Assembly (NCBI RefSeq): GCF_009914755.1
Contig: NC_060938.1
Length of the DNA: 64,000 bases
From: the human T2T-CHM13v2.0 reference genome, Homo sapiens
Strand: one strand, 5' to 3'
Part shown: piece by piece, positions 8,147 through 31,590 of the stretch
Position numbering within the stretch: position 1 is the first letter of the stretch
Layout of the letters: the number at the start of each line of letters is the position of its first letter
Position numbers and translations under genes: made by a program
The notes under the pieces: model-generated
Seen by the model: the letters and a program-made list of their open reading frames with translations, nothing else
The model's database searches: none
What the model was told of the DNA's origin: nothing

Positions 8147-9762
8147 GGCTTCCTCACAAACAAAACAAAAACTGTTCCAGTTGATCTTCCAGAAAATGAC
8201 AAAAGTTTTTCTGTCTGAGGGTGGATTTGACTGAGTGTCCTACCCCGAAAGCTTCTTAGTTTGCCTTGTGGCTTTGGTGTGACAGACAGTATTGTCTTTG
8301 AAGTGACCTTAAGTATTTACATATGTCGTCTGTTTTTCTGGTGCATTGGAAGGGTAATTTTTGAGTATGAAGGGTCAAATCTTCTGGGCACAGCTTGCCT
8401 CAAGAGCTCTGGTAGGTTCTTGTATGAAGGTTCTTTAACATGTTGCTAGACTCCCCTTAAATCCAATTTGGATCATGACCAGTTTTAGCATATATTCCAG
8501 AACTCAGCATGCAGCAGTTCCAAGGGCATGTAGCCCAGTTGTTTAGTATCTTATTTTTGAAAGTATGAATTCTTTCTATTTGTGCTGTGTACTGCTTTGA
8601 TTTTTACTTTGTCCTAATTATTTGGTCAGACTATTCTCTTAATCTTTTTACCATTTTATAATAGCTCTTAAGAATGTTGAATCCACTTAAGAGAAAAAGA
8701 ACATGAAGATAAAGGTTGGGTACAATACGGGAAGAAAATAATGAAGGAATATATATTTAATTCCATCAAAGAGACATATATCAATTTCCAGGTTTAGGGA
8801 AGAGAAGTGAAAATAGACTAATAAAAACTAAATTTGATTAACAGGGTTTCACTGTTGTGCACAGAGCCCTTGCTTACCAATGGGTGTTGTTCCACGCATT
8901 GCTTTGTAAGCTATTTGGAACTTGAAAGACACTTTCCTATAAAAGTTGGGGCTAAAATCCAGAGCACAAAAGCCCATTTAATCTGAATTTCATGTATATC
9001 TGAATTTCAAGGTGAAGAGTCCTATAAAGACTAATGAAATATATAATTGATTCATTCAACAGATCCGTATTAAGCACCCATTGTGCTGGTTATGGTGATA
9101 GATGCTTTTCCATGTTAGATGCTCTTAGAATTCCTACTCCTCCAACTACAGTAGGATGGGGCTAATTAATTACTGCCTTCATTCAATAAATATTTATCGA
9201 GCAGCTGCTGTTGGGCTGACACTGTGCAAGCTATGTAGGCTCTGAGGATGCAGAGAGAGGGATCCTGCTTCTACTTTTAAGGAGCTGTCAGTCTGGTCAG
9301 GGGAATATTACAAGTAAAGGGAGAGCTTCAGATTATTTTGGTAAGTGCTTCCATAGGGGTAAGCACAGGGCGTAGGAGGAATGAAAATGAGGGAAAGGAA
9401 CCCAAGCTGAGATTTGTTTTCTGTGGGAGGTGGAGAATAGATCTCAAAGCAGGTGAAGCTTAGAGCATTTTGAAGAATGAGTTAAAGTTGGAAATGAGAG
9501 TATGGGAGCAGAGACATCCTGGGCATAGAAACATGAGGATCTGAAAAAAGAAAAGAGGTAACCACGCATTGGTTGGGTATGGCTGGAAGCGGAGATGGGC
9601 AGGGTGGGGATGTGGAGAAAGCTGAGGCTAGAGGTAGTGTTGAATACATGTGTCAAGAGTTCAGGAGAGAGAGGGATGGAGAAGCTGCCCTGCTGGCCAT
9701 CAGTATGGAGGTGGGAGTTGGAGCTGTGGGTTAAGATTTGCAGAGACAGCATATGGACTCAG

Positions 9763-10736: not shown

Positions 10737-11040
10737 AGGTGCACAAACCTTTATCTGGAATTGTAAAAACCAAACCATCTAAAACTGGAATGTTTTTCTT
10801 GTCGTTAAGATTGTTTTAACTGAGATGAGGTTATTTAGAGTGTTTACTTATCTCTCTGTTAGTTTGAATAATCATGTTTTAATTATTAATGTGTTTTATT
10901 ACAAGGTGTTTCCTCAGACTCCACTGGGGTATTAAATAATACATGGTACATGTACCATATTGTCTTTTTAAAATCTGAAAGAACCTGAATCTTGAAACAT
11001 ATCTAGTCCCAAGGGTTCCAACAATGGACTTGGCATGTCT
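10737..11040. mobile_element. MER46C-like (TcMar-Tigger) MITE
   Basis: caggtgcacaaacctttatctggaa... and ...gaaacatatctagtcccaagggtt, degenerate terminal inverted repeats. Confidence 0.65.
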
Positions 11041-11258
11041 AAGCTAGTGACTCATCTGGGCTATTTCTGATTTCTTAAGTGAACCTGACTTTCCTGCCTG
11101 CTTTGTGGCCCCCCAGAGCCTTCTAGTGTCATAGAAGAGGGAGCTGGTGGTATTGTAATTGTATGTTGGTAACCTGTAGCCAGGCATGGGCAGAGGTCTT
11201 TTTATGATCACCATGTACATCTGCATCAGGCTTGAGCCTGGCATGTCATAGAGTCAAT

Positions 11259-11792
11259 ACTGTTGATTAAGCGGATGGATTTGTAAATAAGTGATTTTCC
11301 CTGAATTCACTTTTCTTTTCCTATCCTGCCTCCAGGCTTGGTTATAGCTCCACTCTGCCAGCTCTAAATAGGATGTGGATAGGGGTTTCTCCAGGGCCCA
11401 CACATGGCCGGTAGTTTCGCTTGCAGGCATCTCTGACGGATTTTGCTGCTGCTAGAGTGTGGTATATGGGTTGGATTCTGAGGCCACACTCAGGCAAGAG
11501 TACCATAACCAATTCACAGCCTCTACTTTTGATACAGAAGATACATGGTACTCTTTCCTGAGTGTGGCCTCAGAATCCAATTCATATACCATACTCTAGC
11601 AGCAGCAAAATCCATCAGGGGTGCCTGCAAGATTAATCTACTGGCCATGCATGGGCCCTGGAGAAACCCCTGTCCACGTCCTGTTTAGAGCTGGCAGAGT
11701 GGAGCTATGACAAACCTGGAAGCAGGATAGGAAAAGAAAAGTGAATTGAGGGAAAATCGCTTATTTACAAATCCGTCTGCTTAATCAACAGT
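11259..11792. repeat. Long inverted repeat: arms 11259-11506 and 11545-11792 (248 bp each, ~90% identical), 38-nt spacer
   Basis: Manual base-by-base alignment of the left arm with the reverse complement of the right arm. Confidence 0.97.
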
Positions 11793-11999: not shown

Positions 12000-12370
12000 A
12001 CTTGAGAATCAGAAAGGGCTCACCCACATGTTACTTAACTTTTCTGGGCTTCAGTAACTTCATCTGTTGAATAATGATTTAATAGCTTTCTCTGAGGATA
12101 TTGTAAGTTTTAAATGGAATATTATATGTAACATGAGGAGCACATGATAATGCCTAATAAACGTTGCGTAGAGTTCTTTTGTGCCTACAAAGTATTTCTT
12201 TTGCTTGTCACAACAACTTTGTAAGGCAAGGCAGGGATTATTATTCCCATTTATATATGAAGAAATGGAAGGTCAGAGAAGTAAAGTGACAAATGGCAAG
12301 TCACACAGCTAACAAGTGGCAGAACTAGGACCCTAACTTGGGTTTTTAAAATTCTAAATCCTTTATGCTT
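12000..12370. mobile_element. Two adjacent MIRs in opposite orientation (+ ~12000-12165, - ~12190-12370)
   Basis: ttacttaacttttctgggcttcagtaacttcatctg and cccatttatatatgaagaaatggaaggtcagaga cores. Confidence 0.65.
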
Positions 12371-30532: not shown

Positions 30533-31590
30533 ATAGGTAAACACTTTTTCTCATAGGCATAAATATAGTGGGCTGAATATGGCACCAGAAGGGCCCAGGT
30601 TGTAGTATCATTGTATTCAGAGTTAGTTGGGTTTGACCTTAGTTCGTGGCTGTTGGGACAGGGAAGAGGGTCCAATAACTAGAGACATGGGGGTAGGGTC
30701 GGACAAGTAAGCTCTCGGCTGGATTTAAAGGTTTGTCTAGGAACTCACAATATAAATAGGAATGCCAGAAGAACTTCCCAGGTAAATACAGTGGGGAGTA
30801 GAGAAATGCAACATTTCATGGGTACTTGGGCTTCTTTCCTAGGTTTAGGGCAGGAAGACAAGTACTTATTGGCTCATGACTTATGGATTTGAGCTTTCTC
30901 AACTGCACAGAAATGACTTAATGCTGGGAATATTTGAGTCACCAAGGGGAGATCCTCTGGGTCTCGCAAAGGAAAGAGGTAAGGCTGCTATAAGATATAG
31001 ATTTCTTTTAAGCTACTTAAAAAAACTCCATTGAGGCACACTTGAAGTACAATAAACCGCACATACATAAAGTATACAAGTTGATGAGTTTTGACATATT
31101 GTACTTGTGAAACAAATACCACAGTCAAGAAAACATATATTTACATCACTCCAAAAATTTCCTCCTGCCTCTTTGTAATCCATCTCTCTCTCTAACCCCA
31201 CCCCAGGCAACCATGGATCTATTTTCTGTCACTATATATTATTTTGAATTTTTAGATTATTATAAAAATGGAGTTATATAATGCACATTCTTTTTACCTT
31301 TTTACCCACTAGTTTAATGCTTTTGAGATTCATTCGTGTTGTTGCAGGTATAAATAGTTCCTTCCTTTTGATTTCTGAGTAATATTTCATTGTATTTATA
31401 TACCACAATTTGTTTATCTGTTCATGTGTTGCCAGGCTTTTGGTTTGCTTCCAGATTTTGACTATTACACATGAAGCTTCTATGAACATTTGTAAGTCTT
31501 TGTGTGAACATGTGTCTTTGTTTTTCTTGGGAAAATATCTGGAAGTGGGTGGCTAGGTTATATGGTCAAATGTATGTTATGTTTAAATTC

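What the first reader, a model, noticed from the sequence alone, without database searches (positions are those of the whole stretch)
11259..11792. ~250-bp-stem intronic hairpin, apparently a local inverted duplication, with sense-strand G:U bias
Seen: 11259-11506 and 11545-11792 are reverse complements (248 bp each, ~90% identical) around a 38-nt loop. By my manual alignment there are 18 transition differences. Thirteen of them would be G:U wobble pairs in the + (SYT16 pre-mRNA) strand and only 5 would be A:C mismatches (one-sided binomial p about 0.05). There are also 2 transversions, a 1-nt bulge and one 5x6 internal loop. The arms are not Alu or L1, and I see no TSD or known MITE terminus. 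The left arm starts inside what looks like an L2 3' tail (cctggcatgtcatagagtcaatactgttgattaagcggatggat), while the right flank is unrelated, suggesting fold-back or template-switch duplication. Established: long inverted repeats with short spacers are unstable in DNA (cruciforms), and long intronic dsRNA is a substrate for ADAR, Drosha/Dicer and dsRNA sensors. Inference: persistence plus wobble bias hints at a retained RNA structure (editing hub, endo-siRNA or proto-miRNA source) or arm-to-arm gene conversion.
Basis: partly seen in the sequence, partly recalled or inferred. Interest (0 to 1): 0.8.

Follow-up and report, generated by a model that had tools for sequence, protein, structure and literature searches.

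The report
One-off inverted duplication in SYT16 intron
A 248-base stretch of a SYT16 intron was copied once, backwards, right next to itself tens of millions of years ago, and the resulting long hairpin looks like an ordinary, neutrally decaying by-product of DNA replication rather than a selected RNA structure.

Summary
Arms 11259-11506 and 11545-11792 are reverse complements, 224 of 247 aligned columns identical (90.7%), with a 38-nt spacer. The + strand RNA folds at -451.7 kcal/mol, z -39.

The repeat occurs at one place only. In the whole T2T genome the arm finds only itself and its partner. The same tool finds thousands of Alu copies and a lone relative at 67% identity in a low-copy control. 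There is no target-site duplication, no tRNA, tandem repeat or long ORF, and no Rfam family reaches threshold.

The best reading is a single replication template switch or fold-back that made an inverted duplication roughly 25-45 My ago, followed by neutral decay.

The sense-strand G:U excess is real: 13:4, 14:5 or 13:5 depending on the alignment. I measured the same strand asymmetry on 40 Alus across 264 kb of this gene. Wobble-making transitions are favoured 1.2-1.3-fold, giving a null share of about 0.56. Against that null the excess is not significant (P 0.07-0.12). Transversions are not depleted and there are no gene-conversion tracts.

Editing, small RNAs and species distribution could not be tested here.

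The parts
11170..11280 (+). Probable very decayed LINE-2 3' end. It runs from the left flank about 22 nt into the left arm.
   Evidence: A local alignment to an L2 3'-end consensus derived from 19 copies in the surrounding 263 kb scores 69. Shuffles give 52 +/- 5.5 (P 0.004), and 99.4% of 530 real 131-nt windows score lower. The flank alone (11170-11258) has P 0.010, and the mirror side has P 0.30. The nhmmer profile does not detect it, and one of the 5 scoring schemes shows no excess. Support is weak.
11259..11506 (+). Left arm, 248 nt. Probably the parental copy.
   Evidence: Its only genome-wide matches are itself and the right arm.
11507..11544 (+). 38-nt unique spacer, which forms the apical loop of the RNA hairpin.
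   Evidence: It has no similarity elsewhere in the 264 kb.
11545..11792 (+). Right arm, 248 nt. An inverted copy of the left arm and probably the derived copy.
   Evidence: 90% identical to the reverse complement of the left arm, E 3.5e-88.
11415..11419 (+). Left side of the only sizeable internal loop. Its partner is about 11632-11636. A 1-nt bulge lies near 11337.
   Evidence: Fold and alignment (transversions at 11417-11419 / 11632-11634).

Best explanation
This is a single-locus inverted duplication. During replication or repair in an ancestral anthropoid primate, the nascent strand passed the segment 11259-11506 and 38 further bases. It then switched to the complementary strand, copied those 248 bases backwards, and returned to the original template. 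In the four-point template-switch model this is order 3-2-1-4, a fold-back. The event created a perfect 248-bp palindrome with a 38-nt spacer inside a SYT16 intron.

Since then the two arms have each gathered about 5% substitutions (K2P between arms 0.10) under the ordinary mutation spectrum of this transcribed region. That spectrum favours A>G and C>T on the sense strand, so it produces more G:U than A:C in the pre-mRNA hairpin.

When SYT16 is transcribed, the intron should fold into an imperfect dsRNA of about 248 bp, 95.6% paired counting G:U. I infer that it behaves like inverted Alu pairs: a nuclear ADAR substrate that is discarded with the intron. I infer no selected function.

Shown: the repeat, its uniqueness, the lack of transposon hallmarks, the local mutational asymmetry, and the lack of signs of selection or conversion. 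Inferred: the mechanism, the polarity (left arm is the parent), the age, and the fate of the RNA.
For: Uniqueness. The arm (248 nt) and the whole 651-nt region match only their own locus in the 3.1-Gb genome, with 1 first-look candidate each, even at E<=10. Controls with the same tool:
- Two Alu-bearing stretches gave 5253 and 5443 candidates, with copies at 86-92% identity.
- A low-copy pseudogene found its one relative at 67% identity over 259 nt.
- blastn (word 7) and nhmmer against 264 kb of the gene found nothing but the two arms.

No transposon hallmarks.
- The longest perfect direct repeat within +/-6 nt of the ends is 3 nt, equal to the null median.
- The flanks are not direct repeats of each other (P about 0.4).
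- The 25-nt terminus pattern with up to 3 mismatches gave 3 extra sites, against 1 for the reversed control. Those 3 share only 22-57 nt with the arm.

Polarity. L2-3'-end-like sequence crosses the left arm boundary only.

Neutral decay.
- Sense-strand asymmetries on 40 local Alus are A>G/T>C 1.22 (bootstrap 1.01-1.47), C>T/G>A 1.31 (1.06-1.59) and CpG 1.29 (1.07-1.51).
- G+T on the + strand is 53.1% in the window and 53.8% in its first 42 kb.
- The expected wobble share is about 0.56, which gives P = 0.068 (13 of 17), 0.088 (14 of 19) and 0.121 (13 of 18).
- The transition share is 11 of 15 in the arms against 613 of 850 in Alus.
- Differences are evenly spaced.

Not an assembly fold-back artefact: the arms differ at 23 aligned columns plus two 1-nt gaps.

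Mechanism precedent. Template switches that create inverted repeats and hairpins in one event are documented in human and primate genomes. The 3-2-1-4 type and its mirror make up 31% of high-confidence human-chimp events (PMC5453318, passages). More than 6,000 such hairpins are reported in primates (PMC10710096, abstract and section 5).
Against: The template-switch events described in those papers are far shorter, with inverted fragments of 15 or more up to 83 nt in the passages I read. A 248-nt fragment is outside the documented range.

I found no junction microhomology, though 10% decay would erase 1-3 nt.

The L2 evidence for polarity is weak. nhmmer is silent and one scoring scheme shows no excess.

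No outgroup genome was available. The empty site, the age and the direction of each substitution are therefore unverified.

The G:U excess is still nominally suggestive (P 0.025-0.048 at p0=0.5). The lower bootstrap bound of the asymmetry (p0 about 0.51) would leave it at P 0.03-0.06.

The Alu-based asymmetry rests on only 12 copies in one orientation and 28 in the other.
Confidence: 0.72

Rival explanations
1. The hairpin is a selected RNA element of the SYT16 pre-mRNA, such as an ADAR editing hub, an endo-siRNA source or a proto-miRNA. Pairing on the sense strand would be preserved by selection, and that would explain why G:U outnumbers A:C.
For: G:U(+) to A:C(+) is 13:4 to 14:5. The + strand fold is 33 kcal/mol more stable than the - strand fold. 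The longest uninterrupted helix counting G:U is 60 bp on + and 36 bp on -. Weak miRNA-like Rfam hits sit at the apex 11466-11587. The host gene is neuronal, and editing is high in brain (own knowledge).
Against: The bias is no longer significant against the locally measured mutational asymmetry (P 0.07-0.12). Transversions, which always break pairs, are not depleted. All Rfam hits are far below gathering score: 41.6 against 105, 37.5 against 100, 28.7 against 82 and 23.9 against 84.5. RefSeq annotates no RNA gene here (hub table). A continuous 248-bp stem lacks the basal junction about 35 bp from the loop that miRNA processing prefers (PMC10710096 introduction). Four full-text searches pairing SYT16 with inverted repeat, A-to-I, dsRNA or hairpin listed nothing relevant; I judged this from titles and abstract openings only.
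Confidence: 0.08
2. It is the relic of a palindromic DNA transposon (a MITE-like element with long terminal inverted repeats) that inserted here.
For: The overall shape, two long inverted arms around a short unique centre, is that of a foldback or MITE element. The ends are sharp.
Against: There is no second copy in the genome at a sensitivity that found a lone 67%-identical relative in a control. Sister copies of an element whose arms are 90% alike should themselves be about 90% alike. There is no TSD. The terminus pattern occurs at chance level. A decayed L2 end appears to continue across the left boundary.
Confidence: 0.07
3. The inverted repeat is much older than its 10% arm divergence suggests, and it has been kept similar by intrachromosomal gene conversion between the arms.
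For: Gene conversion between palindrome arms is well known for large palindromes (own knowledge). Without an outgroup, the age cannot be measured directly.
Against: The 25 differing columns are spread evenly. The longest identical run is 26 nt, against a simulated median of 33 under random placement (P of a run this short or shorter, 0.17). No converted tracts stand out.
Confidence: 0.1
4. It is an assembly or sequencing fold-back artefact.
For: Long-read libraries can produce palindromic chimeras (own knowledge).
Against: Artefactual fold-backs give near-identical arms. Here 23 aligned columns differ and there are two 1-nt gaps, with a spectrum typical of old germline substitutions.
Confidence: 0.01

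Closest known systems
Template-switch mutations that create inverted repeats or hairpins: the four-point model, type 3-2-1-4 (Loytynoja & Goldman 2017, PMC5453318; Monttinen et al. 2023, PMC10710096)
   Same: One event makes a perfect inverted copy of adjacent sequence, separated by a short un-inverted spacer. There is no TSD and no family of copies. Such events are often intronic, and the result is an RNA hairpin that then decays.
Inverted Alu pairs and other intronic long dsRNAs that are ADAR substrates; the genome-wide dsRNAscan catalogue (PMC11838218, preprint)
   Same: It is a long, imperfect intramolecular dsRNA in an intron. Its dG (-452 kcal/mol) is similar to the median of edited repetitive dsRNAs (-410 in their Table 1).
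   Different: The arms are not repeats, so it would fall in the catalogue's sparse 'non-repetitive' class: 497,429 of 5.13 million, with median lengths 75-144 bp. The loop is 38 nt, against medians of 509-2035 nt. It is tighter and better paired than the Alu pairs in this window, which are 73-83% complementary with spacers of 562-2688 nt. It falls just short of their putative MDA5 class (>300 bp and >96% paired), at 248 bp and 95.6%. SYT16 is not named in their main text, and their tables were not open to me.
Hairpin-RNA and young miRNA loci born by inverted duplication in plants, flies and mouse oocytes (recalled; no paper read here)
   Same: A local inverted duplication yields a long near-perfect hairpin transcript.
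   Different: Those loci copy a target gene and yield small RNAs. Here the copied DNA is anonymous intron (no ORF over 86 aa), and no small-RNA evidence exists.
MITEs and foldback DNA transposons
   Same: Long inverted arms around a short centre.
   Different: It is single copy, has no TSD, and its terminus is not conserved elsewhere.

Membership tests
DNA transposon / MITE | Several copies in the genome, with similarity matching their age | tested here: not met
   Only the own locus is found. Controls were positive, including a lone 67% relative.
DNA transposon / MITE | Target-site duplication flanking the terminal inverted repeats | tested here: not met
   The longest perfect flanking direct repeat is 3 nt, equal to the null median.
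DNA transposon / MITE | Match to a curated repeat consensus (Dfam/Repbase) | not testable with these tools
   No repeat library was on hand. The stretch is not among the masked stretches listed in the hub table.
Template-switch (four-point, 3-2-1-4) inverted duplication | The inverted fragment is a reverse-complement copy of immediately adjacent sequence on the same chromosome | tested here: met
   The arms are 38 nt apart, and 224 of 247 columns are identical in reverse complement.
Template-switch (four-point, 3-2-1-4) inverted duplication | An ancestral or outgroup sequence that lacks the copy and is explained by one switch event | not testable with these tools
   No other primate or mammal genome was available.
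Template-switch (four-point, 3-2-1-4) inverted duplication | One arm sits in its original context (is the parent) | tested here: inconclusive
   L2 3'-end likeness crosses the left boundary only (P 0.004 and 0.010 against 0.30 on the mirror side). The nhmmer profile does not detect it.
miRNA precursor families (Rfam MIR3440, mir-641, mir-5615, mir-506) | Score at or above the family's gathering threshold | tested here: not met
   41.6 against 105, 37.5 against 100, 28.7 against 82 and 23.9 against 84.5 bits.
ADAR-edited intronic long dsRNA | A long intramolecular duplex of 25-30 bp or more within one transcript | tested here: met
   The stem is 248 bp, with a longest Watson-Crick run of 26 bp and 60 bp counting G:U on the sense strand. 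It lies inside a SYT16 intron per the hub table.
ADAR-edited intronic long dsRNA | Observed A-to-I sites on both arms | not testable with these tools
   No RNA-seq or editing database was available. Literature searches found nothing for this locus.
LINE-2 3' end (left flank) | Significant alignment to an L2 3'-end profile | tested here: inconclusive
   The nhmmer profile built from 19 local copies gives no hit on the flank. A lenient local alignment has P = 0.004-0.026 in 4 of 5 schemes and 0.60 in the fifth. The score lies above 99.4% of real windows.

The most novel reading that the evidence does not exclude
A primate-specific, single-copy 248-bp hairpin, created in one step by an unusually long template switch, has been kept foldable on the sense strand of a neuronal gene's intron. 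It would act as a non-repeat ADAR editing hub or a small-RNA source. That would make it a caught-in-the-act example of a long hairpin-RNA locus being born from anonymous DNA in humans.
Probability: 0.07. Interest if true: 0.6.

Novelty: new member of a known kind. Interest (0 to 1): 0.27.

Why it matters
The locus is a clean example of how a long intronic dsRNA can arise from non-repetitive DNA in one mutational step. Its inverted fragment is about three times longer than the template-switch events described in the passages I read.

Its main practical value is as a caution. In any transcribed region, the ordinary transcription-associated mutation asymmetry pushes an inverted repeat towards G:U rather than A:C on the sense strand. 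A wobble excess is therefore not by itself evidence of selection for RNA structure. Here I measured that null in the same gene.

If later data showed editing or small RNAs, the locus would be a useful non-Alu model substrate. Without such data it is an ordinary neutral relic.

Tried and rejected
- I built a sequence-only covariance model of the arms, but the own genome does not accept model searches. I used DNA and pattern searches instead.
- Rfam gave only sub-threshold, generic hairpin hits, plus an irrelevant bacterial sRNA hit at 10927-11006.
- My first attempt at an L2/MIR profile drifted to MIR and did not touch the hairpin or its left flank.
- One recalled L2 motif found no seeds at up to 2 mismatches. 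Fuzzy matching found usable seeds.
- The L2 nhmmer profile did not hit the flank. It gave only a 6-bit noise hit inside the right arm.
- An apparent direct repeat between the left and right flanks, seen by eye, was not significant (P about 0.4).
- The bacterial promoter/terminator scan is irrelevant to a human intron.
- The ORF, tRNA and tandem-repeat scans showed nothing: no tRNA, no tandem repeat, no reading frame over 86 aa.
- I looked for junction microhomology by eye in the sequence and found none.
- CpG decay as the sole cause of the bias is rejected. The bias is 8:3 outside CpG columns and 5:1 inside them.
- Four SYT16 literature searches listed nothing that looked relevant from title and abstract opening, and I did not open those papers. 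Supplementary tables of the dsRNAscan preprint, which may list this hairpin, were not open to me.

Full report
What is there. The window is a human SYT16 intron on the + strand (hub table). The nearest listed exon starts at 30862, about 19 kb downstream. The repeat finder reports three collinear inverted segments: 11420-11506/11545-11631 (87 nt, 92%), 11338-11417/11635-11714 (80 nt, 89%) and 11259-11340/11711-11792 (82 nt, 93%). A gapped alignment joins them into two 248-nt arms. Of 247 aligned columns, 224 are identical (90.7%), and each arm has one 1-nt gap. The spacer is 38 nt. As RNA the + strand folds into one long hairpin of -451.7 kcal/mol, against -169 +/- 7 for shuffles (z -39, 0 of 100 as good). 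The - strand folds at -418.7 kcal/mol (z -36).

Is it a repeat family? The human T2T assembly is held as the window's own genome.
- The left arm matches only itself (100%) and the right arm (90%, E 3.5e-88). The first look produced a single candidate locus.
- A 651-nt query over the whole structure at E<=10 again finds only its own locus.
- The same tool gave 5253 and 5443 candidates for two Alu-bearing stretches of the window, with copies at 86-92% identity.
- A low-copy control, the annotated 507-nt pseudogene downstream of the window, found its single relative on another chromosome at only 67% identity over 259 nt.
- A sensitive local search (blastn word 7, nhmmer) of 264 kb of the gene, made plus the window, finds nothing but the two arms.
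- The 25-nt arm terminus with up to 3 mismatches occurs at 3 other places, against 1 for the reversed control pattern. Those 3 places share only 22-57 nt with the arm.
- There is no target-site duplication. The longest perfect direct repeat within 6 nt of the two ends is 3 nt, the null median. The two flanks are not direct repeats of each other (P about 0.4).
- There is no tRNA, no tandem repeat and no reading frame over 86 aa.

Sister copies of a transposon whose own arms are 90% alike should also be about 90% alike, and they would have been found. The transposon reading therefore fails two defining tests. A curated repeat library (Dfam) was not available.

Which arm is the parent? I built an L2 3'-end profile from the surrounding gene with the locus masked; it rests on 19 copies and gives a 121-nt consensus.
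- nhmmer with that profile does not detect the left flank. A strict local alignment shows no excess either.
- With more lenient scoring, the consensus aligns end to end with 11170-11280. The score is 69, against 52 +/- 5.5 for shuffles (P 0.004). P is 0.004-0.026 in 4 of 5 schemes and 0.60 in the fifth.
- That score exceeds 99.4% of 530 real 131-nt windows.
- The flank alone, without the arm, gives P 0.010. The mirror-image test on the right side gives P 0.30.

This is weak but one-sided support. A very decayed L2 end seems to cross the left boundary by about 22 nt, so the left arm sits in its original context and the right arm is the copy.

Mechanism. An inverted copy of immediately adjacent DNA, with a short un-inverted spacer, no TSD and no family, is what a replication or repair template switch produces. 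In the four-point model, events of order 3-2-1-4 (with the mirror 1-4-3-2) create an inverted repeat, and they made up 31% of high-confidence human-chimp events (PMC5453318, passages read). Such events are reported to have produced over 6,000 hairpins in primates and some miRNA genes (PMC10710096, abstract and section 5 read). Those fragments are short, from 15 nt upward, with examples of 28 and up to 83 nt. The present 248 nt is well outside that range, and this is the one unusual feature of the locus. I saw no junction microhomology by eye, but 10% decay would hide 1-3 nt.

Age. The K2P distance between the arms is 0.101. Outside CpG columns, 15 of 233 sites differ, which is 3.2% per arm. 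That is lower than all 40 local Alus measured against their pooled consensus (minimum 4.5%, median 7.6%; this is inflated by subfamily differences). Using primate divergences recalled from memory, I infer an origin roughly 25-45 My ago, around the anthropoid or catarrhine ancestor. This is an estimate and was not measured.

The G:U bias. At p0=0.5 the one-sided P is 0.025, 0.032 and 0.048.

The right null is not 0.5, however. In a perfect hairpin, sense-strand A>G and C>T make G:U, while T>C and G>A make A:C. Mammalian introns are known to have more A>G than T>C on the non-template strand and an excess of G+T (PMC2927911, passages read). The + strand here has 53.1% G+T, and 53.8% in the first 42 kb.

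I measured the asymmetry in this gene on 40 Alu copies from 264 kb, 28 in one orientation and 12 in the other. I used double ratios that cancel site composition and age. The results were A>G/T>C 1.22 (bootstrap 95% 1.01-1.47), non-CpG C>T/G>A 1.31 (1.06-1.59) and CpG C>T/G>A 1.29 (1.07-1.51). This gives an expected wobble share of about 0.56, with a range of 0.51-0.60. Against 0.558 the one-sided P becomes 0.068, 0.088 and 0.121.

The excess is therefore in the direction expected from mutation alone and somewhat larger in size. With 17-19 events it is not distinguishable from that expectation. CpG decay alone does not explain it, because the bias is 8:3 outside CpG columns and 5:1 inside them.

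Other signs of selection or conversion are absent.
- Transversions always break a pair, and they are not depleted: 11 of 15 non-CpG differences are transitions, against 613 of 850 in local Alus.
- The differences are evenly spread. The longest identical run is 26 nt, against a simulated median of 33, so there are no recent conversion tracts.
- Persistence does not need selection. In yeast assays, raising an Alu inverted-repeat spacer from 12 to 20 bp lowers recombination about 40-fold, and divergence lowers it exponentially (PMC10164571, introduction passages read).

What the RNA probably does (inference). The sense hairpin is 95.6% paired counting G:U, against 92.0% on the antisense strand. 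Its longest Watson-Crick run is 26 bp, and the longest run with G:U is 60 bp. That meets the length reported for ADAR substrates (a 28-bp example is cited in PMC11838218). It falls just short of that preprint's putative MDA5 class (>300 bp and >96% paired), and being intronic it should not reach the cytoplasm. All Rfam hits at the apex are miRNA families at less than half their gathering scores, and RefSeq lists no RNA gene here. In this window the only other inverted repeats of 60 nt or more within 3 kb are 73-83% complementary pairs with spacers of 562-2688 nt. Several of them coincide with Alu copies. This is therefore the tightest dsRNA former in the window.

The dsRNAscan preprint predicts 5.13 million human dsRNAs, 497,429 of them non-repetitive (PMC11838218, passages and Table 1 text). 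This hairpin should be among them, but SYT16 is not in the main text and I could not see the tables.

Verdict. The locus is a real, single-locus, non-transposon inverted duplication. It most likely arose from one long template switch in an ancestral anthropoid and is now decaying neutrally. The suggestion of retained RNA structure or gene conversion is not supported by what could be tested. Editing, small RNAs, polymorphism and species distribution remain untested.

Noticed in passing
G000 C14:56034001-56298000 (264 kb of SYT16, window included): Sense-strand mutational asymmetry measured on 40 Alus: A>G/T>C 1.22, C>T/G>A 1.31 and CpG C>T/G>A 1.29. The C>T excess is seen far from the gene's 5' end, whereas the paper I read (PMC2927911) describes that asymmetry as local to the first ~2 kb in mammals. 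The sample is small (28 copies against 12).
   Followed up: partly
same 264 kb: 28 of the 40 long Alu copies have their T-rich end first on the + strand, so they are antisense to SYT16. Only 12 are in the sense orientation.
   Followed up: no
window 12039-12166 (+) and 12187-12283 (-): Two MIR-like copies in opposite orientation lie just right of the hairpin. A MIR profile built from the region found them. They form a second, much weaker inverted pair.
   Followed up: no
window 9047-9142 (-) and 9176-9298 (-): Two adjacent L2 3'-end copies on the minus strand, found by the local L2 profile.
   Followed up: no
L029 (C14:56358003-56358509, outside the window): The annotated pseudogene LOC100419079 has a single detectable relative on contig C5 at 67% identity over 259 nt. 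I used it only as a sensitivity control.
   Followed up: no
window 10927-11006 (-): A sub-threshold Rfam hit to a Salmonella sRNA family (30.7 bits against a gathering score of 60). It is certainly spurious in a human intron.
   Followed up: no
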